Positions 24,772 to 33,279 of a stretch of DNA of 64,000 nucleotides are shown piece after piece. The translations under genes and the position numbers were made by a program. The stretch lies in contig OZ245999.1 in assembly GCA_965230265.1 (NCBI GenBank), positions 1,755,158-1,819,157 on the forward strand, in the 5' to 3' direction. The stretch is from Wenzhouxiangellaceae bacterium (lineage in GTDB: Bacteria; Pseudomonadota; Gammaproteobacteria; Xanthomonadales; Wenzhouxiangellaceae). The stretch's first letter is position 1, and every line of letters starts with the position of its first letter. The notes under the pieces were generated by a model. It was not told the origin of the DNA. It was given only the letters and a program-made list of their open reading frames with translations, and did no database searches.

Positions 24772-26013
24772 TTACGGGCTGCTACAAGTCCAACTTGAAG
24801 TGTCCCCCGACTCAAAACCGTCTGCAAAAAAGTTCTCTCCAATGCGTGTGTTAATCACGGTATCATTATTAGGGCCTGCGGTAATGTATCTCGTATCAAA
24901 ACTTTTACTGTTGGTCCTGTGTACAACACACCCATCAACGGGCCCACCAAACCCTTGTGCTGGATACTCAGGGTCAATACTTACTAGCCCACCAACAAAG
25001 GGGTCTTCAACAATGAAATAATCCCCCCACAAGACATTGGTTTTTAACGAGTTATCGTTTTCATCAACAATACCTACCAAAGCACCACTTTGGAAATTAA
25101 AAAACATACCGTTATTATCGATAGTTCCCAAATTGCCAGTGGTGAATAAGCCAGGGTTATCTATAGGAATATTCGCAGTCCGTGCATCGCCATCGGCATT
25201 ATAAGTGAAGCGCACCTGCATACCTGATGCGGTATCAATCACAATACCGCCAGACTCCCTGACAAAAGTAAACCCAGCAGGCGGAGGTAAATTGACTATA
25301 TCGGTATCGGTTCGGCTGGGCGGGTTATTTGTAGTGCTAAAAGTACTTACCCGCACCATGCCATTATCCAACTGATACAAACTGGCCGCATCACCATGGT
25401 GATTCATTGCCAGTTGGTCGCGTACCGCACCATCAAACGGGCCACTGATCGTTCTTCCAGGACCACCTGTAATGGTTTCATAAATACTCCAGTTCAACCC
25501 ACCATTGATAGAAAGAAAAATCAGCAGTGAGTCATTGGTATCATTATGTGCACTGACAAAAATACCCTGTTCAGAGGTGGCGCAATCAGCGCTATCAAAA
25601 TTATCGGTTTGCGTAAATGGAATGGAAAGCGTTGACCAGCTGGAACCATTAAAGCGGGCATACTCAACATTAAAATTATCAATATAAGGCGCTACCACCA
25701 CATTGCCTTCGGTGCATAAATCACCCAGAGAAAACAATGTTGCAGAGTTATCCAGAGCGGTTGTCATTAAGCCTGTGCCATCATACGGTGGGGGCATCAT
25801 TAGAGCATCGAGCCGATTATTTGCTCCATCATTCCATAAAACAATACCGGCAAGATGAGGGTCTGGAATATCTTCCAACACCCCCAGCTTCGCTTCTAAT
25901 GGGAGCTCATCAAAAACGGTCACAGAAGTCCAGCCATTACCCGTACTGACCACACCAGAATTAACTGCAGATACGCATAACAACAAAACCAGCAAACAAA
26001 AAACTTTCATCAC
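24772..26013 (-). CDS. Secreted protein with BNR/Asp-box-like repeats and a conserved C-terminal GENFFxDGFE tail
   Basis: Strong AGGAGG RBS and signal peptide. It has Asp-box-like 'SINGGLNW' and a C-terminus '…GENFFADGFESGDTSSWTCSSP'. Confidence 0.55.
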   Translation of the reverse strand: MMKVFCLLVLLLCVSAVNSGVVSTGNGWTSVTVFDELPLEAKLGVLEDIPDPHLAGIVLWNDGANNRLDALMMPPPYDGTGLMTTALDNSATLFSLGDLCTEGNVVVAPYIDNFNVEYARFNGSSWSTLSIPFTQTDNFDSADCATSEQGIFVSAHNDTNDSLLIFLSINGGLNWSIYETITGGPGRTISGPFDGAVRDQLAMNHHGDAASLYQLDNGMVRVSTFSTTNNPPSRTDTDIVNLPPPAGFTFVRESGGIVIDTASGMQVRFTYNADGDARTANIPIDNPGLFTTGNLGTIDNNGMFFNFQSGALVGIVDENDNSLKTNVLWGDYFIVEDPFVGGLVSIDPEYPAQGFGGPVDGCVVHRTNSKSFDTRYITAGPNNDTVINTRIGENFFADGFESGDTSSWTCSSP

Positions 26014-26292: not shown

Positions 26293-27780
26293 TTAAATAA
26301 TAGAGTCATCCTCAACTTGCTCGGCTTCGATCCACTCAAATTCAACATCAGGCTGTACTTCATCTTCATCGGTGCTGAACTCAAAATGCAGCCCGTTGAT
26401 AAAGCCATCTTCCATCAGCACCTCAAAGTCATTGCTTAAAGCCTCACCCAGCTCCCCAGAGAAATCCTTTAATAAACCCAGGCTTTCCAAGTCGTCCAGA
26501 TCCATCTCGCTTAAAGCTTCTAAGCCTTTTATCTGAAAGCCACCACTTAAATCCAGGCCTTCAAGCGCTTTGAACATTTTATGCCCTTTCAGCATACTCA
26601 GACTTTTAAAAGGGTGTGAGCTTTCCGGCACTTCGAAACTGACTTCAATGTCATCGCGGTCACGCAAAATTTCAAGCGTTACCGTTTCACTGGTGTCGTA
26701 GGAACGTAAGATACGAAAAGCATGGTGTGGGTCATTTGGCTTACGACCATTAATTCGCATCAACACGTCGCCACCACGTATATCAGCCGGAAAAAAATCA
26801 TCGGGCACGCTGATGACTAACAACCCTTCACTGGTACCGAAATACCGTCCCAGATCAGGATTTAAATTGACCAGCTCCAACCCACCAACAAAACTGCCGC
26901 CAAGAGCATTAAAAATCACATTGGGCGCAGTTGGTGCCAGAGGTGCATTCTCTGGTAGAGGTGCCAATGGTGCAATCGGCGCGAAACTTTGCGGTGAGCG
27001 CCGTTCTGCCACCAGCACCGCATCGTCAATCACGCCATCACGCTGATACTCCAGGTTGACTTCATCACCTGGTTCCAGTTCTGACATGACTTCCAATACC
27101 TTACCGGCCGGACTGTCCAATTGAGTATCATCCAGGCGTACATCATTAATAGCCAATAAAATATCTTTGGATTGCAAACCGGCTTGATCAGCCGGGCCAC
27201 CAGGGCTAACCGAATTAATGCGCACACCTGTTTGTTCATCGTTGTCAGAAATACTCACACCTAACATAGCGCGGTTGGCATCTCTCAAAAAGCGAAAAGC
27301 GTAGCCACGTGCCGGCGTTAGGTCAGCTGATAGTTCAGCGACTTTATTGGCGGCAGCCCGCAACTCTTCACGCGCACTCTCGTAGTCAGCTCGTGCTCGC
27401 TCCCTATCCTGGCGGGCCCGTTCACGTTGTTGCTCTGCCTGTTCTCGCACTTGTGCTGCCTGTTCGCGAGCCTGTTGCTGATTTTGCACCTGCAGCATCC
27501 GTGCTTGATGAGCCTGCTCTCGATCTGTCATGACCTGCTGGCGCATCTGCTGCACTCTGACATGCTGCTCAGCACGAGCGTCTGCCAGTGCTTCATGGCG
27601 ACGTTTTAGTTGTTCACGAGCCTGTTGGTGTATTGCCGCCTGATGCGCTAACAGCGCTTGCCGCTGCTCAGCTTCATGTTGGACATGGCCACCATCTTGA
27701 GCCATTGATGGTGCTGAAAGCACCGTCGCCAAAGCGATGACCCATACACTGCTAATATTTAGAATCGTCCTGTCTGTCAT
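26293..27780 (-). CDS. Periplasmic coiled-coil protein with two PDZ domains and no protease domain
   Basis: Signal peptide, then a Q/R/E-rich heptad region. Two PDZ-like modules ('GVSISDNDEQTGVRINSVSPGGPADQAGLQSKDILLAIND' and 'GLLVISVPDDFFPADIRGGDVLMRINGRKP') are followed by an acidic C-terminus. Confidence 0.7.
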   Translation of the reverse strand: MTDRTILNISSVWVIALATVLSAPSMAQDGGHVQHEAEQRQALLAHQAAIHQQAREQLKRRHEALADARAEQHVRVQQMRQQVMTDREQAHQARMLQVQNQQQAREQAAQVREQAEQQRERARQDRERARADYESAREELRAAANKVAELSADLTPARGYAFRFLRDANRAMLGVSISDNDEQTGVRINSVSPGGPADQAGLQSKDILLAINDVRLDDTQLDSPAGKVLEVMSELEPGDEVNLEYQRDGVIDDAVLVAERRSPQSFAPIAPLAPLPENAPLAPTAPNVIFNALGGSFVGGLELVNLNPDLGRYFGTSEGLLVISVPDDFFPADIRGGDVLMRINGRKPNDPHHAFRILRSYDTSETVTLEILRDRDDIEVSFEVPESSHPFKSLSMLKGHKMFKALEGLDLSGGFQIKGLEALSEMDLDDLESLGLLKDFSGELGEALSNDFEVLMEDGFINGLHFEFSTDEDEVQPDVEFEWIEAEQVEDDSII

Positions 27781-27851
27781 GCGTTTGCCTCATTAAGATA
27801 ATCAATAAAATAAATGAGTGGTGATTAAAAAATTACCCGGTTGTTTTCCGG

Positions 27852-28568
27852 TTAAATCTGCTGGTTCAATAGGCTGGTTGTATCAGTATCCAGCTCGGTA
27901 TCTGAACTGGCTCTCAAACCGCCATAACGCCCGGCGTATTGATTGATCAGCAATTCACTCAGTAACGCGACCCGCTGTTGCCATAGGCCGGTACGTTCAT
28001 TGCTGATCAACTCATTGTCTCCAACCGAGTTACGGCTGACTTCCGAGGCTGCTATTTGTAAATCCACAAAAGCAATCATACGTTCTAGCTCATCGGTGGT
28101 GACTGCCTGATAGCCGGATAACACCTGCCCGTTGTCTTGTTGTCGCAATGCCCTAAGCGTGTTTTCCAAAAACTGTGAGCGCTCAACCAGTTGCCGTAGA
28201 TGCTCACCGCCCTGTTCCACTACCTGCACTGGTTGCGGGGAAATGCTTAACGGTGGCCGATAAAACACCACCGAAATCACCACCAGCAATGCTGCCGCAA
28301 TACCAATCCATTCATCAGCACGCAACCAGCCATGGCTGGCTTTACGTTTCCTGATGCTTGCAGGGCCAGCGAGGGTGTCATGATTCAACTGCTGTGATAT
28401 CTGCTCCCAACCGGCAGTTTCTGGAACCGCCTTCAGCGGCAGACCCTGTAAGGCCGTTTTCAATCCTCGCAGGGATTGCAGCTCATCATCACCAGAGAGG
28501 AAGTCCTGCAAAGCTTTGGTGGAATCAGCGGTCGATGGCTTGCTTGATGAATGGGTAGGCTTGTTCAT
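27852..28568 (-). CDS. Single-pass membrane anti-sigma factor (putative)
   Basis: Its start overlaps the sigma gene's stop (ATGA). About 90 aa of cytoplasmic N-terminal region is followed by one TM helix 'WIGIAAALLVVISVVFY' and a periplasmic C-domain. Confidence 0.5.
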   Translation of the reverse strand: MNKPTHSSSKPSTADSTKALQDFLSGDDELQSLRGLKTALQGLPLKAVPETAGWEQISQQLNHDTLAGPASIRKRKASHGWLRADEWIGIAAALLVVISVVFYRPPLSISPQPVQVVEQGGEHLRQLVERSQFLENTLRALRQQDNGQVLSGYQAVTTDELERMIAFVDLQIAASEVSRNSVGDNELISNERTGLWQQRVALLSELLINQYAGRYGGLRASSDTELDTDTTSLLNQQI

Positions 28569-29254
28569 GAATTTGCCTCAAACAGCACATTGCTGTTCAG
28601 ATGATGATTTTGGGGTGATGGGTGAGCTGACACTGATCCAGTATTTGATTCGGACTCAGATGGGGATGGACCCAATAGTTCTCTTAATTGAATATGCGCT
28701 CTTGCCAGACGAGATTTGGAAAAACTGACACTGCGGTCCATCAACTGTGCCACTTCGGCATGCGTATAACCTTCTACATGGTATAACCAAACCACCATCC
28801 GCGATAAACCCGGCAGTTTCTGCAAAGCCACCTCCAGTTCATTGCACTGGGTATATTGGGTGGCCTTTAACGAACTGGCTAACTCCGGGCTATGCAAGGC
28901 ATCTTCCATATCAACCTCTATACCTCGGCGCTTGTCAGAACGCATTCTCATTAAAGCAGTGGTACTGACAATTGTTCGCAGCCAACACCAAAATGGTGCA
29001 TCGCTACGGTATTGATACAAACATTTAAAGCATTTCACAAAACTGTCCTGCATCACATCCTGAGCATCCGCCTGGTGACACAACAGCCGCAGCGCCAGGT
29101 TATACACCTGCCTGGAATATCTTTGATACAACCACTGCATTGCTACCTGATCACCTGTTTGAGCCTGAAAAATCATATCCTGCTCTTGCTGTTGGTGGTT
29201 ATCTGTTGCTGTCGGTGGTTTTTTGGAAGCTTCTGAACCCAAGCACCCGCTCAC
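28565..29254 (-). CDS. ECF (sigma-24-like) RNA polymerase sigma factor
   Basis: Sigma region 2 ('…YxxLxxxALRLLxxxxDAQDVMQDSFVK…') and region 4 HTH ('…GYTHAEVAQLMDRSVSFSKSRLARA'). The start may instead be the internal MIFQAQ at 29176. Confidence 0.8.
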   Translation of the reverse strand: MSGCLGSEASKKPPTATDNHQQQEQDMIFQAQTGDQVAMQWLYQRYSRQVYNLALRLLCHQADAQDVMQDSFVKCFKCLYQYRSDAPFWCWLRTIVSTTALMRMRSDKRRGIEVDMEDALHSPELASSLKATQYTQCNELEVALQKLPGLSRMVVWLYHVEGYTHAEVAQLMDRSVSFSKSRLARAHIQLRELLGPSPSESESNTGSVSAHPSPQNHHLNSNVLFEANS

Positions 29255-29416
29255 TATTGTTGTTGGCTATAGGTATAGATGTCGAAATCGCGAAAAAGGT
29301 CGCAATCAATTCAGACGAATAAATGACTCACAACATGGCACTATTTGAATACTTTGCCTAAACCCCGGTAAAACCGCTGCAATAAGCGTTATCTGCTAGT
29401 GCTGATGCCACTGTCA

Positions 29417-31324
29417 TCACCCCCCATTGGACCAAAGATAAACCAGCGCCAGACAGGCCAGCGCATTATTGATGGCATGCAAAAGGATACTCGGCATCAG
29501 GCTTTTAGAGTGCTTGACAAAATACCCGGCAACCAAACCCAATGCCGTATAAAAGATAAATAACTGGGTATCCTCATGGACCAGCGCAAACAGCACCGCT
29601 TGGATACTGTTTGCCCAGAAAAAGTTCAGGTGCTTAGACAACGCCGATAACAGCACACCTCTAAACAACAACTCTTCAACAATCGGCGTAATCACCGCCA
29701 CCGACAACAGCATTGCCCACAGCCCATACAAATTGTAAATGGACTGAACAGATTCTTCGGTGAATGTTTGGTTGGTTTGCCCAATACCGGCAGCACCTGC
29801 AGTAAAACCTTCTGCCAATACTGCCACCACTCGCAAGCAAATATACAAAACCAGTGACAAGCCAACACTCTTGCCCCAGGACCATTCGCCCGTATCAAAC
29901 AATCGCCAATTACCTCTGGCTACTAGCAACACAGCAGCCAGCATACAAACATCCACAAAGAACAGTGTGTGCGCTTTTGCCTGCTGAGTTAGCTCATCGG
30001 CTGACCATTCAATATCCGGGAGAAATAACGATGCAAGCTCTGGGTATGACCAGATATACAAGGTAATAAAGTCAACCAACAGATAGACCGTCAATAACCA
30101 CCATGCATGCTTCAGGTTCCAGGTCCCGATAAATGCATTGGTCTGCCAACCTTTGCGCTGTTTCAATAAGCTGCGGTAATGAACCGGCAGGATTAATACC
30201 AGTGGGATAGCCGCGCAAAACAACAGCAATAACACCCAGTTCAGTGACCATAGAAAATCTTTGACAGTAAAAGCAATTTCAGGGAAAACTCGCTTGAGTT
30301 GCCAACGGTAATACAACAATGGATCACTGCTATAACCTTGCTGGCGGTACAGCTGGTATACCTGGTTGGCTTGCTCTGGGTACGGTTGCTGTAAAGCAAA
30401 CTCCAGAAGCGCTTTGCCACTTTTGAGCGGGTCATAGTTATCTTGCAAATAACTCGACATGGCATCCAGGGCTTGCTGCTGTTTACCCTGCGCCATATAT
30501 AGACGTATCAGATCATCATTTGATGGCGTTATGCCATAGTCGGCCTGCATGGTTTGATACAGCGTTTCAGCTTCACCCAGATACCCATGGTTAACCAAGT
30601 GTTCAAACGCCAGACGCGTTGTCCAATTATTGTCATCGTTGTATTGCAAAGAAGAAAGGATATCCAGCGCCTGCGGGGCCTCACCGATAGAGAAATAATA
30701 CTTGGCGGCCCTTACCCCTTCGTACACCATTGATCGATCCAGCTCATAGGCTTCTGCTGCCAGCTTGCCGGCCAACTCATCATCCAGCCAGCTGGTGTTA
30801 TCAGCAGCCGCAATTGTGTAGCGGTTGATTTGTTCGTTACTCCATCCGGAAATATCGGCAGATTGCCATTGCCGATAAATTTCCAGCGCATCTTCCCCAT
30901 AAGCGGTCTCTATATTCCGGATATCAATTTCCGGGTGTTCTGGGTAAGCCTCTTGTATTTGCTCAAAACAATCCGTGTTGATGTCTTCTGCGGCTTGAAC
31001 CCATGTATAGCCCTCATCGTTATAAGCAAACAATGCCGCCAGACGACAACGCTCGATCTGAACCGCTACCGTGTCCCTCTCGGGGTTATCTTGAATATAG
31101 ACTTCATAGGCCCGGTTAGCGTGGTTATAAAAGTTTTCGCTATCCTGTTCAGCCTGCTGATAAAGGCGTTCAGCACTGCCTGTTCCAAGGTCAATACTTT
31201 GTGCTGCTATTGATACACTGACAAGGCAAACAAAGCCGCCCACCATCAATGGCAAAAAGCAGTCAATAAAACGGGCCATCTGGCGGGTGAAAACCATGAT
31301 CATAGATAAGCAGGTGTCAATCAA
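29417..31324 (-). CDS. CPBP-family (CAAX/PrsW-type, Abi) intramembrane metalloprotease with N-terminal TPR-like domain
   Basis: The C-terminal membrane domain carries the CPBP motifs 'EELLFRG', 'FALVHE' and 'HAINN'. The N-terminal ~350 aa is TPR-like and helical. Confidence 0.7.
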   Translation of the reverse strand: MIDTCLSMIMVFTRQMARFIDCFLPLMVGGFVCLVSVSIAAQSIDLGTGSAERLYQQAEQDSENFYNHANRAYEVYIQDNPERDTVAVQIERCRLAALFAYNDEGYTWVQAAEDINTDCFEQIQEAYPEHPEIDIRNIETAYGEDALEIYRQWQSADISGWSNEQINRYTIAAADNTSWLDDELAGKLAAEAYELDRSMVYEGVRAAKYYFSIGEAPQALDILSSLQYNDDNNWTTRLAFEHLVNHGYLGEAETLYQTMQADYGITPSNDDLIRLYMAQGKQQQALDAMSSYLQDNYDPLKSGKALLEFALQQPYPEQANQVYQLYRQQGYSSDPLLYYRWQLKRVFPEIAFTVKDFLWSLNWVLLLLFCAAIPLVLILPVHYRSLLKQRKGWQTNAFIGTWNLKHAWWLLTVYLLVDFITLYIWSYPELASLFLPDIEWSADELTQQAKAHTLFFVDVCMLAAVLLVARGNWRLFDTGEWSWGKSVGLSLVLYICLRVVAVLAEGFTAGAAGIGQTNQTFTEESVQSIYNLYGLWAMLLSVAVITPIVEELLFRGVLLSALSKHLNFFWANSIQAVLFALVHEDTQLFIFYTALGLVAGYFVKHSKSLMPSILLHAINNALACLALVYLWSNGG

Positions 31325-31415
31325 AGAACAGTGTTAATGGTTACAGTATTGTTAATAGATAACAACCCGCAGCAGTGCCACGGGTTTTAATTCGCTTGGG
31401 TCTTATCAAAGACTA

Positions 31416-32585
31416 TCAACTGGTGCTGATCCGACTGGTCGTTTGCGTGTTGCCCTGCTCAATCTGAACCAGATTGCTCAAAACGCCATCCAAACCACCG
31501 AATACCGTCAGCGATCCGATCTTGTCGGTCACCTGCTCCAGCGCCTCCAGTTCTTTCAAACGCAACAGCGTTGGATTATCGGTCATCAACCGGGCAGTGT
31601 TCATTAAACTACGGGTAGCTGCAGTTTCTTCACGCCGCTTGATCAGGTTAGCCTGAGCCACTTTTTCTGCCTCAACCACCTGATTCAAAATGCTCTTCAT
31701 TTCGCCAGGCAGGATAATATCCTTGATCCCGGCAGAATGCAGTTGCATCCCAACTTCGATGGCTTTCGGTGCCACTTGTTTGCTAACCAGCGTACCGATG
31801 GCATCCTTATCACTTAGCAATTCATCCAGTGTGCGAGTACCAACGGTTTCCCGCAGGGCAAACTGCAATTCACGATAAATAAATGCCTCGTGGTTTTTCA
31901 CCTTGCTAATCAACAACTCTGCATCGATTACCCGAAAAGCAGCAGACAAATTAACCCGCAGTGATACCTTGTCTTTGGTCAGCATTTCCTGGCCATTGAT
32001 GTCCAGCAGCTGCTCACGATTATCAAAACTCAACACTTCAATTTTCCGCAAACAGGTCCAGAACGCATACCGGCCAGGGCTTAAGCTGCGTTGCAACTGG
32101 CCATCGACCATCAACAGTGCGGTTTCGTTCTGGGCAACTTCACTGCTGCACACCAACTTGCGAAACACGGTTGGGAAAATATCTGCGCCACGTTCCAGCA
32201 ACACTCTGGTCAAGCCAGGTTCAATTTCAAAGGTCTTGCTTACGTCAATGGTTTGCACCTGCACATCAACAACACCCTTCCAGAAAACCTGACGTGTACC
32301 GGGTCTGATCAGATTCCATAATTTACCATCACGGTACACCAGACCAACCTGCGTATCACTGATGTTGGCAATCTCCACGTGCTTTGCAAACAGTTCTGAA
32401 TGACGCTCCAGCAAAACATCCAGCTGCGGATGCCGCAGTATCAATGCGCCCGCATCACAACGCTCAAAGCTCACACGACCGAAAGCCCAGTGAACCCCTG
32501 GTGTTAAAATATCTTCCAGCTGACCATTACGGAACTGCAAGACCCGTTCATTTTCTGCAATGACAATACGATACAAACCAAACAT
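31416..32585 (-). CDS. SPFH/band-7 (stomatin/slipin-like) domain protein
   Basis: I re-assigned the start to ATG 32585 with a GAGGT RBS; the track's TTG at 32624 is unlikely. The C-terminus is band-7-like ('…AIEVGMQLHSAGIKDIILPGEMKSILNQVVEAEKVAQAN…') and sits after repeated beta-rich modules. Confidence 0.5.
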   Translation of the reverse strand: MFGLYRIVIAENERVLQFRNGQLEDILTPGVHWAFGRVSFERCDAGALILRHPQLDVLLERHSELFAKHVEIANISDTQVGLVYRDGKLWNLIRPGTRQVFWKGVVDVQVQTIDVSKTFEIEPGLTRVLLERGADIFPTVFRKLVCSSEVAQNETALLMVDGQLQRSLSPGRYAFWTCLRKIEVLSFDNREQLLDINGQEMLTKDKVSLRVNLSAAFRVIDAELLISKVKNHEAFIYRELQFALRETVGTRTLDELLSDKDAIGTLVSKQVAPKAIEVGMQLHSAGIKDIILPGEMKSILNQVVEAEKVAQANLIKRREETAATRSLMNTARLMTDNPTLLRLKELEALEQVTDKIGSLTVFGGLDGVLSNLVQIEQGNTQTTSRISTS

Positions 32586-32954
32586 AATTTTTACCTCATA
32601 ATTTCTCCGATCAATTAATATCAATCATTAATAAAACACTGACTGGGTTATCCAGCAGCACATATTGGTGCGGTCAGCCCACGCCAATCAGGCGGGTTCA
32701 CAGTGAATTCGCCCCAGAAATTAACACCGATGGAACCGCTTTTAATGATTTAATTCAATCGAACTTGATTAAGCACAGCGCTGATTATTCAACGGCAATA
32801 CTCAACCCGTTTTCGACGTCATTTAAACCACGCCAAACGGTCGCATCGGGAACCAGGCCCAGCCGGCGCTGCTTCAGCTTTCAGCAATATTGAACAAGCC
32901 AACACTGCATCCGGCATCCGCCGGGCTTCCCGCGTTTTGTGGAAGCTTAGGCTC

Positions 32955-32992
32955 CCGGATTGTGGATTCGAACCACAAGGCTTTGCCTTTAC
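32955..32992 (-). pseudogene. Degenerate tRNA 3'-fragment (T-arm plus acceptor 3' strand only)
   Basis: A perfect T-arm GTGGTTCGAATCCAC is followed by ATCCGGGAGCC. I could find no matching 5' acceptor, D-arm or anticodon arm. The 7-mer GCCTAAG follows both this fragment and the intact tRNA. Confidence 0.2.
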
Positions 32993-33014
32993 CGTCATTG
33001 GCGTCTTAGGCCAT

Positions 33015-33088
33015 TTTTGAGAGCGGGATTCGAACCCGCCACACAACGATTATGAGTCGTCTGCTCTACCCATATGAGCTACCTCAAA
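33015..33088 (-). tRNA. tRNA with CAT anticodon (elongator Met, or tRNA-Ile2 with lysidine)
   Basis: Cloverleaf by eye: acceptor TTTGAGG/TCTCAAA, D-arm GCTC…GAGC, anticodon stem-loop GACGA-CTCATAA-TCGTT (identical loop to E. coli ileX/metT), T-arm GCGGG-TTCGAAT-CCCGC. CCA is not encoded. Confidence 0.6.
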
Positions 33089-33240: not shown

Positions 33241-33279
33241 AAATAAAAAAGCCCCGGCAATGGCCTGCCAGGGCTTTTA
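33241..33279 (-). terminator. Rho-independent terminator downstream of the TolB-like gene
   Basis: The minus-strand reading is AAGCCCTGGCAggccatTGCCGGGGCTTTTTTATTT. A second perfect 9-bp hairpin lies at 33286..33310. Confidence 0.6.

What the first reader, a model, noticed from the sequence alone, without database searches (positions are those of the whole stretch)
26293..32624. Candidate envelope-stress proteolysis module: SPFH protein, TPR-CPBP protease, ECF sigma, anti-sigma and a coiled-coil double-PDZ protein
Five co-directional genes sit in this block. They are an SPFH/band-7 protein, a CPBP (PrsW/CAAX-type) intramembrane protease with a ~350 aa TPR-like N-domain, an ECF sigma factor ATGA-coupled to a single-pass anti-sigma factor, and a periplasmic protein with a long Q/R/E coiled-coil and two PDZ domains but no trypsin-like domain. 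PrsW-type CPBP proteases are the site-1 proteases for anti-sigma RsiW in Bacillus. SPFH proteins commonly scaffold membrane proteases, and PDZ domains sense unfolded outer-membrane-protein C-termini in the RseA/DegS pathway. Here all three elements are combined in a configuration I do not recognise as a described system. That suggests a new regulated-intramembrane-proteolysis route for activating an ECF sigma factor.
Basis: partly seen in the sequence, partly recalled or inferred. Interest (0 to 1): 0.72.

Follow-up and report, generated by a model that had tools for sequence, protein, structure and literature searches.

The report
ECF sigma operon beside unrelated genes
The five genes are real, but only three of them (an ECF sigma factor, its membrane partner and a protease-less double-PDZ protein) travel together across many bacteria, so the proposed five-part proteolysis machine is mostly an accident of neighbourhood.

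Summary
All five minus-strand genes exist with the stated domains. Comparative genomics splits the block into three independent units.

1. The conserved module is the sigma, a single-pass anti-sigma-like protein and a periplasmic tandem-PDZ protein. The PDZ gene follows the sigma in 40 of 41 testable related loci. These come from Wenzhouxiangellaceae-like and Xanthomonadales-like Gammaproteobacteria. A conserved ECF-type promoter, TGCGAC(C/G)-N16-CATC, sits upstream of the sigma in 51 of 52 loci. The window has one copy, at 29276-29303.

2. The CPBP protease has intact catalytic motifs and a TPR-like periplasmic domain. It is next to the sigma in only three loci. It is cleanly absent in a close relative (L091). 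Its family sits in unrelated contexts elsewhere.

3. The SPFH protein has no membrane segment and more than 7,900 homologues. Its constant companion is not a protease. It is an upstream tRNA-like gene with a variable anticodon plus a conserved leader of about 430 nt.

The "new RIP route" reading is therefore only partly supported. The trio is a plausible, apparently uncharacterised envelope-signalling ECF group. Its PDZ partner looks like an HtrA protease that lost its protease domain. The tRNA-like/slipin unit is the most unexpected by-product.

The parts
26293..27780 (-). Periplasmic tandem-PDZ protein (495 aa). It has a signal-like N-terminus, one long helix (33-154), two HtrA-type PDZ domains and an acidic disordered tail ending in SII. 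It is the third gene of the conserved trio.
   Evidence: Pfam PDZ_2 E 2e-20 with two stretches and no protease domain. AF2 model. Foldseek best hits are the DegQ/DegP PDZ1-PDZ2 tandem at E about 1e-11, the RseP PDZ tandem at 3e-7 and the DegS PDZ at rmsd 1.5-1.9 A. A homologue lies within 1.2 kb downstream of the sigma in 40/41 testable loci.
27852..28568 (-). Single-pass membrane protein (238 aa, TM about 84-102). It is the presumed anti-sigma factor and the second gene of the trio. It has a conserved cytoplasmic motif, L-x2-AL-x-x-LP...W, and a conserved periplasmic helical domain, ELE-x-(L/M)IG-x-VD-x-QL ... LWQQRV-x-LL.
   Evidence: ATGA overlap with the sigma. One hydrophobic segment. An equivalent 155-240 aa single-pass ORF lies between the sigma and PDZ genes in nearly all related loci. 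There are only weak hits to NCBIfam NF052375 'antisigma' (5/17 members, best E 2e-4). There is no Pfam family and no PDB relative.
28565..29176 (-). ECF (group 4) sigma factor, probably 203 aa starting MIFQAQ. It has a C-terminal extension of about 35 aa ending in LFEANS.
   Evidence: Sigma70_r2 at 1.6e-13 and Sigma70_r4_2 at 4.4e-11. TIGR02937 scores 69 bits against a cutoff of 42.9. No equivalog model reaches its cutoff; RpoE TIGR02939 scores 85 against 236. Start inferred from alignment A1. The closest solved relatives are SigH, SigW and RpoE at E 1e-20 to 1e-23.
29276..29303 (-). ECF-type autoregulatory promoter candidate: GCGACC (-35-like), 16 nt, CATCTA (-10-like).
   Evidence: It is the only match in the 64-kb window. 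The same motif sits at the same place upstream of the sigma in 51 of 52 related loci, in 50 distinct sequences with otherwise unconserved flanks.
29417..31303 (-). CPBP (Rce1-like) glutamic-type intramembrane protease with an N-terminal signal-anchor and a helical-repeat (TPR-like) periplasmic domain of about 300 aa. It is a lineage-specific neighbour, not part of the conserved module.
   Evidence: PF02517 E 8e-20. EExxxR, FxxxH and HxxxN are invariant. An N-domain search found 91 representatives, 75 of them with the same N-domain plus CPBP layout. AF2 and Foldseek. It lies next to a sigma only in the window, L001 and L002-L004.
31364..31386 (-). GC-rich hairpin (10 pairs) just after the SPFH stop codon. 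It is a likely transcript end or processing site for the SPFH unit.
   Evidence: Terminator-like scan. The same hairpin follows the SPFH gene in L091, where the sigma promoter comes next with no CPBP.
31416..32585 (-). Soluble SPFH/Band-7 'slipin family' protein (389 aa) with no transmembrane segment. It belongs with the upstream tRNA-like gene and leader, not with the sigma operon.
   Evidence: PF01145 E 7e-31. HflK and HflC equivalogs are far below their cutoffs. No hydrophobic 19-mer. There are 7,943 homologues, mostly about 50% identical over the full length. Contexts are unrelated to sigma or CPBP.
32586..33014 (-). Conserved leader of about 430 nt between the tRNA-like gene and the SPFH start. 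It includes a T-arm-like hairpin, TGTGGTTCGAATCCACA.
   Evidence: The alignment of the window, L001, L091, L002 and L089 shows long invariant blocks, although L089 lies in a different genomic context. RNAalifold on the first 110 nt or so predicts 23 pairs, 8 with compensatory changes. There is no Rfam family.
33015..33088 (-). tRNA-like gene (called tRNA-Met, CAT). It is a member of a set with a shared body and variable anticodon that precedes slipin genes.
   Evidence: ARAGORN and Rfam at 57.9 bits. At the same position relatives carry TTT, ATA plus CAG, CGA, GTG or AAA anticodons. The cloverleaf is kept in 95.7% of cells, with 14 of 21 pairs changed on both sides.

Best explanation
The interval is a juxtaposition of three units with separate evolutionary histories.

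Unit A (26293-29303) is a three-gene, autoregulated ECF operon. It encodes the sigma factor, a single-pass membrane protein that most likely acts as its anti-sigma factor, and a secreted tandem-PDZ protein. The PDZ pair is of the DegP/DegQ/DegS type, but the protease domain is replaced by a helix of about 120 residues.

Proposed working of unit A:
1. At rest the anti-sigma's short cytoplasmic segment holds the sigma.
2. Its conserved periplasmic helical domain is bound or shielded by the PDZ protein, possibly through the helix that is conserved just before PDZ1.
3. When the PDZ domains bind exposed C-terminal peptides of misassembled envelope proteins, the anti-sigma is left open to housekeeping site-1 and site-2 proteases encoded elsewhere.
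4. The sigma is freed and transcribes its own operon from TGCGACC-N16-CATC.

Shown:
- gene order and coupling
- conservation of the trio
- the conserved promoter
- domain and fold content

Inferred:
- the anti-sigma function
- the sensor role of the PDZ protein
- the nature of the signal
- proteolytic release

Unit B (29417-31303) is a stand-alone TPR-like-CPBP intramembrane protease of a rare but recurrent family. It happens to lie upstream of the sigma in one small lineage.

Unit C (31364-33088) is a tRNA-like gene, a structured leader and a soluble slipin-type SPFH gene. It moves as a block and is unrelated to the sigma operon.

The confidence value is a blend. The three-unit decomposition is about 0.85 likely. 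The proposed PDZ-sensor mechanism is about 0.35 likely.
For: Trio:
- A scan of species-representative genomes with the sigma alignment gave 52 loci with a close sigma (E<1e-30).
- 40 of the 41 loci with at least 1.9 kb downstream have the PDZ homologue within 1.2 kb. The 41st is an ORF-calling fusion.
- A 155-240 aa single-pass ORF lies in between. It usually overlaps the sigma stop and ends 0-30 nt from the PDZ start.
- Of the 28 loci with a more distant sigma, none has the PDZ gene except L060, where the sigma match is partial.

Promoter:
- It is found in 51 of 52 loci at the expected site, against 56 matches in the remaining 1.5 Mb of both strands.
- The window has a single copy.

PDZ fold.

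Independence of the CPBP:
- A full-length search found only 4 clusters.
- It is next to the sigma in the window, L001 and L002-L004 only.
- It is absent without remnant in L091.
- L005, L093 and L094 family members sit beside patatin-like, TonB_C, PhoU, DUF1820 and MBL genes.

Independence of the SPFH:
- In the MAG that carries the trio in L006, the 71%-identical SPFH is on another contig (L089).
- Its other contexts are also unrelated to the sigma or the CPBP.
- Its upstream tRNA-like gene and leader go with it.
Against: - No experiment or direct computation shows that the middle protein binds the sigma. It matches no Pfam anti-sigma domain and only weakly matches NF052375. In many Xanthomonadales members the cytoplasmic part is only about 35-40 residues.
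- The PDZ protein could be an output of the regulon rather than a sensor.
- The CPBP and sigma genes are co-directional. No convincing terminator lies between the CPBP stop (29417) and the promoter (29303), so read-through and a lineage-specific functional tie cannot be excluded.
- CPBP adjacency is kept between the window and L002 although those proteins are only 41% identical.
- Loci were anchored on the sigma. I could not test whether the many stand-alone double-PDZ proteins from metagenomes (666 hits) are also sigma-linked.
Confidence: 0.6

Rival explanations
1. All five genes form one regulated-proteolysis pathway. The CPBP is the site-1 protease for the anti-sigma, the SPFH protein scaffolds it, and the PDZ protein senses unfolded proteins.
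For: The genes are co-directional and the five-gene order is kept in L001 and L002-L004. The CPBP catalytic motifs are intact. Its N-domain is probably periplasmic, with a signal-anchor and conserved Cys86 and Cys112. That would place it in the same compartment as the anti-sigma's conserved domain.
Against: The trio occurs without either gene in about 48 loci, and with SPFH but no CPBP in L091. The SPFH protein has no membrane segment. In a related MAG it sits on another contig. CPBP family members elsewhere have unrelated neighbours. No sigma-type promoter precedes the SPFH or CPBP gene. A hairpin separates SPFH from CPBP. The Pfam scan listed only Rce1-like, so nothing places the protein in the PrsW family.
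Confidence: 0.07
2. A lineage-specific add-on. The trio is the ancestral module. In the window's clade and in L002 the TPR-like-CPBP has been recruited to cleave or process the anti-sigma or the PDZ protein, for example its acidic tail ending in SII. The SPFH gene is not involved.
For: CPBP-sigma adjacency persists between lineages whose CPBPs are 41% identical. No clear terminator lies between the CPBP stop and the sigma promoter. The acidic tail ending in (S/D)II is specific to the Wenzhouxiangellaceae-like clade that includes the CPBP carriers.
Against: The same tail occurs in L006, L007 and L008, which lack the CPBP. L091 lost or never had the CPBP while keeping everything else. Flanking synteny (def, yajQ, PPIase, GFA, DoxX) is conserved in all these genomes. 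Simple inheritance of gene order therefore explains the adjacency.
Confidence: 0.12
3. The PDZ protein is an effector, not a sensor. It would be a periplasmic holdase or adaptor derived from an HtrA protease. The sigma induces it as part of the response, and the signal is sensed by the anti-sigma alone.
For: It is the last gene of an autoregulated operon, so its level rises with sigma activity. DegP-type PDZ tandems bind unfolded substrates (fold match). No data show a PDZ-anti-sigma contact.
Against: Near-perfect co-occurrence and tight coupling with the sigma and anti-sigma pair across wide divergence is typical of regulatory partners such as RseB, MucB and CnrX. It is less typical of single regulon members, which are usually more dispersed.
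Confidence: 0.25

Closest known systems
RpoE-RseA-RseB with DegS and RseP (Escherichia coli); AlgU-MucA-MucB-MucD (Pseudomonas); rpoE-rseA-mucD (Xanthomonas)
   Same: An ECF sigma, a single-pass anti-sigma and a periplasmic third protein in one autoregulated operon. The PDZ domains are of the HtrA type that read C-terminal peptides. The DegS PDZ superposes at 1.5-1.9 A and the DegP/DegQ tandem matches at E about 1e-11.
   Different: The sigma does not reach the RpoE equivalog cutoff (85 against 236 bits). No RseA or RseB domains are detected. The PDZ protein has no protease domain at all, carrying a 120-residue helix instead. The promoter is TGCGACC-N16-CATC rather than the GGAACTT-N16-TCTGA type that I recall for RpoE (from memory).
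CnrH-CnrY-CnrX (Cupriavidus metallidurans)
   Same: It works alike on paper. A short single-pass anti-sigma with a small cytoplasmic sigma-binding segment is paired with a dedicated periplasmic sensor protein encoded in the same operon. This rests on my own knowledge. CnrH is a detectable but distant relative of the sigma (4cxf, E 1e-10).
   Different: The sensor here is a PDZ tandem, not a metal-binding four-helix protein. The gene order differs, and no homology of the anti-sigma to CnrY was detected.
SigW-RsiW-PrsW (Bacillus subtilis)
   Same: A polytopic membrane protease of the Rce1/ABI-related superfamily performs site-1 cleavage of an anti-sigma (PMC9263693).
   Different: The window protein is a CPBP (PF02517). 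The Pfam scan at E<=0.1 listed no other family. It carries a 300-aa helical-repeat periplasmic domain. Its family is not sigma-linked elsewhere, and the trio exists without it.
HflK/HflC-FtsH and NfeD-SPFH pairs
   Same: An SPFH/Band-7 domain is present.
   Different: There is no transmembrane anchor. The HflK and HflC models score far below their cutoffs. No protease or NfeD gene is a regular neighbour of this slipin family in the loci seen.
[quoted passage not shown] 2021, PMC8421152)
   Same: Two distant slipin homologues lie directly after arrays of 20 tRNA genes (L092, with HNH, PcfJ and RtcB) and 36 tRNA genes (L173). The paper reports HNH and rtcB in the neighbourhood of such arrays.
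   Different: The window has a single tRNA-like gene plus a conserved structured leader. SPFH, band 7, stomatin and slipin are not mentioned in that paper's main text.

Membership tests
ECF (group 4) sigma-70 factors | Sigma-2 and sigma-4 domains only; score above the family cutoff | tested here: met
   PF04542 at 1.6e-13 and PF08281 at 4.4e-11. TIGR02937 scores 69.3 bits against a cutoff of 42.9.
RpoE/RseA/RseB envelope-stress system | Sigma reaches the RpoE equivalog score; RseA-type anti-sigma; RseB partner | tested here: not met
   TIGR02939 scores 85 bits against a cutoff of 236. The middle protein has no Pfam family. Only weak NF052375 hits were found. The third gene is a PDZ protein, not RseB.
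Zinc-binding class I anti-sigma domain (ZAS) | HxxxCxxC motif in an N-terminal domain of about 80 residues | tested here: not met
   The window protein has no such motif (sequence). One distant family member (L048) does carry HVESCDRC. This suggests descent from a ZAS-type ancestor.
Anti-sigma factor (functional class) | Binds and inhibits the cognate sigma | not testable with these tools
   Only indirect support is available: the ATGA coupling, the single TM segment, and conserved position between the sigma and PDZ genes in about 50 loci.
CPBP / Rce1-like glutamic intramembrane proteases (PF02517) | EExxxR, FxxxH and HxxxN motifs in consecutive TM helices | tested here: met
   E543, E544, R548, F572, H576, H609 and N613 are invariant in 62 sequences. 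PF02517 scores 71 bits against a cutoff of 22.4.
PrsW site-1 protease family (M82) | Match to the PrsW-protease profile; genetic or functional link to an anti-sigma | tested here: not met
   The Pfam scan at E<=0.1 listed only Rce1-like for this protein. The family is not sigma-linked in L005, L093 or L094. PrsW is described as a separate family with only predicted structural similarity to Rce1 (PMC9263693).
TPR repeat proteins | Match to TPR sequence profiles; helix-turn-helix repeat solenoid fold | tested here: inconclusive
   No TPR Pfam hit at E<=0.1. The AF2 N-domain is made of confident paired helices. The best PDB matches are TPR/PPR/HAT proteins, but at E 1e-3 to 5e-2 and low TM scores.
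HtrA/DegP/DegS serine proteases | Trypsin-like protease domain followed by PDZ domain(s) | tested here: not met
   The PDZ tandem matches DegQ/DegP at E about 1e-11. Residues 33-154 are one helix, with no protease domain in Pfam or in the model.
HflK/HflC-type membrane SPFH scaffolds | N-terminal membrane anchor; equivalog score; protease partner | tested here: not met
   No hydrophobic segment. TIGR01933 scores 49 against 159 and TIGR01932 scores 17 against 134. No regular protease neighbour was seen.
Five-gene functional module (operational test: conserved neighbourhood) | All five genes stay together in related genomes beyond background synteny | tested here: not met
   All five occur together only in the window, L001 and L002-L004. 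L091 has four genes. About 48 loci have three.
Three-gene sigma / anti-sigma / tandem-PDZ operon | Conserved order, tight spacing and a shared upstream promoter motif across divergent genomes | tested here: met
   40/41 loci have the PDZ gene. Spacing. Promoter in 51/52 loci.
Known anti-phage defence systems (PADLOC) | Profile match of any of the proteins | tested here: not met
   No match was found. The one exception is a spurious coiled-coil hit of the PDZ protein's helix to JetC.

The most novel reading that the evidence does not exclude
The SPFH gene in this block is the protein-coding end of a mobile unit that, as far as I could find, is undescribed. The unit consists of a tRNA-like gene, a conserved structured leader of about 430 nt with a second T-arm-like hairpin, and a soluble slipin-type SPFH gene.

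The tRNA-like gene keeps its cloverleaf, while its anticodon arm is swapped or drifts between relatives. Anticodons seen are CAT, TTT, ATA, CAG, CGA, GTG and AAA. These include anticodons and class-II identities that a normal bacterial decoder would not have.

The unit would link an SPFH protein to tRNA biology, through tRNA-array elements, RNA repair or a tRNA-mimic cis-regulator. It would not link it to membrane proteolysis.
Probability: 0.4. Interest if true: 0.7.

Novelty: new variant of a known kind. Interest (0 to 1): 0.4.

Why it matters
The conserved trio defines an ECF signalling group found in dozens of Xanthomonadales-like and Wenzhouxiangellaceae-like species. Its accessory periplasmic protein is an HtrA-style PDZ tandem without a protease.

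If that protein gates anti-sigma destruction, peptide sensing by PDZ domains would be separable from proteolysis in envelope-stress signalling. It would be a protease-less counterpart of DegS. The sharply defined promoter, TGCGACC-N16-CATC, could be used to map the regulon.

The negative result also matters. Co-directional adjacency of 'protease-flavoured' genes was misleading here, and the SPFH and CPBP genes should not be annotated as parts of a sigma-activation pathway.

The tRNA-like/slipin association, if confirmed on a larger sample, would give a first functional handle on a very large SPFH subfamily. That subfamily has more than 7,900 clusters and is present in about 30% of complete E. 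coli genomes.

Tried and rejected
- **Genomic island.** I looked for island signatures around the tRNA-like gene. No direct repeat of the tRNA 3' end and no integrase were found. G+C is uniform at 0.47-0.48. An integration-island explanation is therefore not supported.
- **Second promoter copy.** I searched the whole window for further copies of the sigma's promoter, with up to 3 mismatches and variable spacing. None was found.
- **Literature.** I searched the ECF re-classification paper for PDZ, CAAX, CPBP, SPFH and Band 7. Nothing appears in the main text and no supplements are held. Searches for ECF with PDZ, and for CPBP with anti-sigma, found no description of such an operon or link. Searches for tRNA arrays with SPFH found nothing.
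- **Anti-sigma family.** I tried to place the protein in a family through Pfam, NCBIfam and a PDB profile search. Only weak NF052375 hits came back.
- **Metagenome scan for the CPBP.** The 62-sequence alignment was too diverse to use. A 15-sequence subset mostly returned generic CPBPs, with only three full-length relatives.
- **Phage origin of the slipin gene.** There was no full-length match in 50,697 phage records and only 3 viral contigs.
- **Defence-system models.** No match.
- **Other conserved neighbours of the trio.** Only clade-specific ones turned up: a Ser/Thr kinase and a MacB-type ABC transporter, in at most 19 loci. No protease was among them.
- **Window genome.** Its nearest relatives are a Wenzhouxiangellaceae MAG and two unclassified gammaproteobacterial MAGs.

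Full report
**1. Observation**

The window carries five minus-strand ORFs at the reported coordinates.

- Pfam finds Band_7 in 31416-32624, Rce1-like/CPBP in the C-terminal 90 residues of 29417-31324, and Sigma70_r2 plus r4_2 in 28565-29254. It finds nothing in 27852-28568. In 26293-27780 it finds two PDZ stretches and no protease domain.
- NCBIfam places the sigma in the ECF superfamily (TIGR02937, 69 bits against a cutoff of 42.9). No equivalog is reached; RpoE scores 85 against 236.
- The sigma and the next ORF overlap by ATGA.
- Homologue alignments move three starts inward: SPFH ATG 32585, CPBP ATG 31303 and sigma ATG 29176.
- Hydrophobicity shows one segment in the anti-sigma-like protein (84-102), a signal-like N-terminus in the PDZ protein, and a signal-anchor plus six further segments in the CPBP. 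The SPFH protein has none.

**2. Synteny test**

Full-length relatives of the CPBP are very rare. Four clusters were found among 5.8 billion proteins. Two of them keep all five genes: L001 (84% identical) and L002-L004 (41-42%). The third (L005, 27%) has neither an SPFH nor a sigma gene nearby.

Searching from the PDZ protein gave a different picture. L006, L007 and L008 share the wider gene order: yajQ or def on one side and PPIase, GFA, DoxX and a PLP decarboxylase on the other. They carry only the sigma, the anti-sigma-like gene and the PDZ gene.

L091 is closer to the window than L002 is, with sigma 75% and PDZ 70% identical. It has the SPFH gene, the same post-SPFH hairpin, then the sigma promoter and the trio. 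It has no CPBP and no tblastn remnant of one. In the MAG that supplies L006, the 71%-identical SPFH gene lies on another contig (L089) among unrelated genes.

**3. The conserved unit**

A scan of one genome per species with the sigma alignment returned 80 loci. Fifty-two have a close sigma, with phmmer E<1e-30 and 37-64% identity. They include Rudaea, Dokdonella, Luteimonas, Ahniella, Pseudolysobacter, Rhodanobacteraceae, Salinisphaerales/Abyssibacter, a Wenzhouxiangellaceae MAG and unclassified MAGs.

- Forty of the 41 loci with enough downstream sequence have a PDZ homologue within 1.2 kb of the sigma stop. The exception is an ORF-calling fusion.
- Between the two genes lies a 155-240 aa ORF with a single hydrophobic segment in nearly all loci. 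It usually overlaps the sigma stop and ends 0-30 nt from the PDZ start.
- None of these loci has the CPBP or this SPFH within 10 kb.
- Of the 28 loci with a more distant sigma, none has the PDZ gene except L060, where the sigma match is partial.
- No other gene is conserved across the set. The commonest neighbours are a Ser/Thr kinase and a MacB-type ABC system, in at most 19 loci.

**4. Promoter**

Upstream of the sigma, six related loci share GCGACC-TTTTT-N11-CATCTA in otherwise divergent DNA. The relaxed form GC(G/A)AC(C/G)-N16-CATC is present at the expected place in 51 of 52 loci, in 50 distinct sequences. It gives 56 matches in the remaining 1.5 Mb of both strands.

The window has exactly one copy (29276-29303), roughly 100 nt upstream of the sigma ATG. 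No degenerate copy lies in front of the SPFH or CPBP gene. The two-block layout and spacing fit an ECF-type autoregulatory promoter. Its activity is inferred, not shown.

**5. The three proteins of the trio**

*Sigma.* Its nearest solved relatives are SigH, SigW and RpoE, at E 1e-20 to 1e-23.

*Middle protein.* It has a conserved cytoplasmic motif, L-x2-AL-x2-LP-x(5-8)-W, then basic residues and the TM segment. Its conserved periplasmic domain reads S-x2-LE ... ELE-x-(L/M)IG-x-VD-x-QL ... LW-x-(Q/R)RV-x-LL. It matches no Pfam family and no PDB chain, and only weakly matches NCBIfam 'antisigma' NF052375. One distant member (L048) has an HxxxCxxC motif in front of the shared L-x2-L-x2-LP motif. 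This suggests descent from a zinc-type anti-sigma domain that has been shortened in most members.

*PDZ protein.* The AF2 model shows one helix over 33-154 (pLDDT 91-97) and two PDZ domains over 170-260 and 300-385 (pLDDT above 90). It also has a disordered acidic tail. The tandem matches DegQ/DegP PDZ1-PDZ2 at E about 1e-11 and the RseP tandem at 3e-7. The DegS PDZ superposes at 1.5-1.9 A. A helix just before PDZ1, (R/K)-x-E-L-x2-A-x2-x-L-x2-A-x3-(V/I)AELS, and the motif YAFR(F/Y)L are conserved across the whole family. The long Q/R/E helix and the acidic tail ending in SII are restricted to the window's clade. Xanthomonadales members have Pro-rich tails instead.

**6. Most likely mechanism**

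The architecture is that of an envelope-signalling ECF system with a dedicated periplasmic partner, as in RseB/MucB or CnrX. The partner is built from HtrA-type peptide-binding PDZ domains. I therefore propose that the PDZ protein reads exposed C-terminal peptides. It would control access of housekeeping proteases to the anti-sigma's periplasmic domain. The freed sigma then amplifies its own operon.

Shown: gene order, coupling, conservation, the promoter motif and the folds. Inferred: sigma binding, the sensor role, the signal and the proteolysis. The main rival is that the PDZ protein is an induced effector rather than a sensor.

**7. The CPBP**

- The catalytic triad of motifs is intact and invariant.
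- The N-domain search over 1.84 billion representatives found 91 hits. Seventy-five have the same layout: an N-domain of about 300 residues followed by EExxxR, FxxxH 29 residues on and HxxxN 37 residues after that. The fusion is therefore a real, rare and unnamed family.
- Family signatures are G(F/W/Y)-x2-DP-x4-R-x2-L, P(V/I)HY(R/W)G, and a conserved Cys pair (C86, C112). The Cys pair is consistent with a periplasmic domain.
- The fold is a helical-repeat solenoid whose closest matches are TPR/PPR/HAT proteins.
- Family members in L005, L093 and L094 sit beside patatin-like, TonB_C, PhoU, DUF1820 and metallo-beta-lactamase genes.
- Nothing links the family to ECF sigmas in general. A lineage-specific role cannot be excluded, but inherited gene order explains the adjacency.

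**8. The SPFH gene and what actually accompanies it**

The protein belongs to a very large 'slipin' subfamily, with 7,943 hits that are mostly about 50% identical over the full length. In every relative that has the gene, ARAGORN and Rfam find a tRNA-like gene 180-480 nt upstream on the same strand.

| Locus | tRNA-like gene(s) called upstream |
|---|---|
| window, L001 | Met(CAT) |
| L091, L002 | Lys(TTT) |
| L089, L090 | 'Tyr'(ATA) plus 'Leu'(CAG), both short |
| L176 | 'Ser'(CGA), 75 nt |
| L179 | His(GTG) |
| L185 | Met(CAT) plus a second gene whose anticodon ARAGORN could not assign |
| L186 | 'Phe'(AAA) |

- Two distant homologues follow arrays of 20 and 36 tRNA genes (L092, L173).
- Three loci lack a called tRNA within about 500 nt upstream: E. 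coli L187, L174 and L188. Each still shows a T-arm-like hairpin or a degenerate tRNA-like sequence in the leader.
- Among close relatives the tRNA body and both flanks are nearly identical, while the 17-nt anticodon arm is replaced.
- Across ten elements the cloverleaf is kept in 95.7% of cells. Fourteen of 21 pairs are changed on both sides, including all five anticodon-stem pairs.
- The leader is conserved even in L089, which lies in a different genomic context. It contains a second T-arm-like hairpin and shows some covariation.
- A simpler alternative is that different members of an ancestral tRNA array were retained in different lineages. I could not enlarge the sample because the context look-ups were exhausted.
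- Loci without the SPFH gene (L006, L007, L008, L011) have no tRNA at the site.

**9. Comparison and novelty**

The trio works like RpoE/RseA/RseB-DegS or CnrYXH on paper, but it fails the membership tests for those families. I found no description of a sigma / anti-sigma / protease-less PDZ operon in the searchable literature. It may still be one of the catalogued but uncharacterised ECF groups. I rate it a new variant of a known kind. The five-gene 'module' is not a unit.

**10. Verdict**

- Interest is moderate at 0.4. It rests mainly on the widely conserved PDZ-partnered ECF group and on the unexpected tRNA-like/slipin association.

Noticed in passing
window 32586-33088 (minus strand); also L001 143-645, L091 1533-2053, L002 8105-8651, L089 7448-8000, L176 6596-7000, L179 6637-7000, L185 3674-4000, L186 3666-4000: Slipin-type SPFH genes are preceded on the same strand by tRNA-like genes. 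The cloverleaf is conserved, but the anticodons differ between relatives: CAT, TTT, ATA, CAG, CGA, GTG and AAA. Several are non-canonical, such as short 'Leu', 'Ser' and 'Tyr' genes and A34 anticodons. A conserved leader with a second T-arm-like hairpin lies between the tRNA-like gene and the SPFH start.
   Followed up: partly
L092 249-7152; L173 2893-9083: Distant homologues of the SPFH protein (49% and 38% identical) lie immediately after long tRNA arrays of 20 and 36 genes. In L092 the array comes with HNH, PcfJ and RtcB genes. This resembles the published L-array neighbourhoods, in which SPFH is not mentioned.
   Followed up: partly
L187 (E. coli CP061233.1 611814-613738) and hits H11-H15: About 30% of complete E. 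coli genomes (1,625 of 5,426) carry a slipin homologue about 44% identical to the window protein. It sits in a small accessory island with a nucleotidyltransferase-domain gene and a zeta-toxin-family gene, between yjbD and lysC. No tRNA is called there, but the leader has a T-arm-like hairpin, ATGGGTTCGATTCCCAC.
   Followed up: partly
window 28565-28670 (sigma C-terminus): The sigma has an extension of about 35 residues after region 4, ending in a conserved LFE(A/V)N(S/Q) just before the overlapping anti-sigma start. The tail is shared by the Wenzhouxiangellaceae-like clade only.
   Followed up: no
window 26293-26580 (PDZ protein C-terminus); L018, L020, L025: The PDZ protein's tail is acidic (29% D+E) and ends in (S/D)II in the window's clade. 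It is proline-rich in Xanthomonadales, where it often ends in a hydrophobic or aromatic residue (LY, IY, IF). Such ends could be ligands for the protein's own PDZ domains.
   Followed up: no
L008 9441-9953: One relative has an extra single-PDZ gene (170 aa) inserted between the anti-sigma-like gene and the tandem-PDZ gene.
   Followed up: no
window 24772-26013 (minus strand): A 413-aa protein without any Pfam family lies directly downstream of the PDZ gene. It is kept there in L001 and L091, lies elsewhere in L011, and is replaced by a GH18 gene in L002.
   Followed up: no
L012-L059, about 10-15 nt downstream of the -10-like CATC: In most Xanthomonadales loci the sigma's GTG or ATG start lies only about 10-15 nt after the promoter's -10-like element. 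This suggests a leaderless or very short-leader mRNA. The window's clade instead has a leader of roughly 100 nt.
   Followed up: no
window 33247-33278 (minus strand): A strong terminator-like hairpin (14 pairs plus a T run) lies between the 287-aa PD40-like gene and the tRNA-like gene. The same hairpin sequence is present upstream of the tRNA-like gene in L091. Rfam gives only sub-threshold leader and sRNA matches here.
   Followed up: no
window 30968-31048 (CPBP residues 86 and 112): Two cysteines in the CPBP's helical-repeat domain are invariant or nearly so across the family. This is consistent with a periplasmic disulfide.
   Followed up: no
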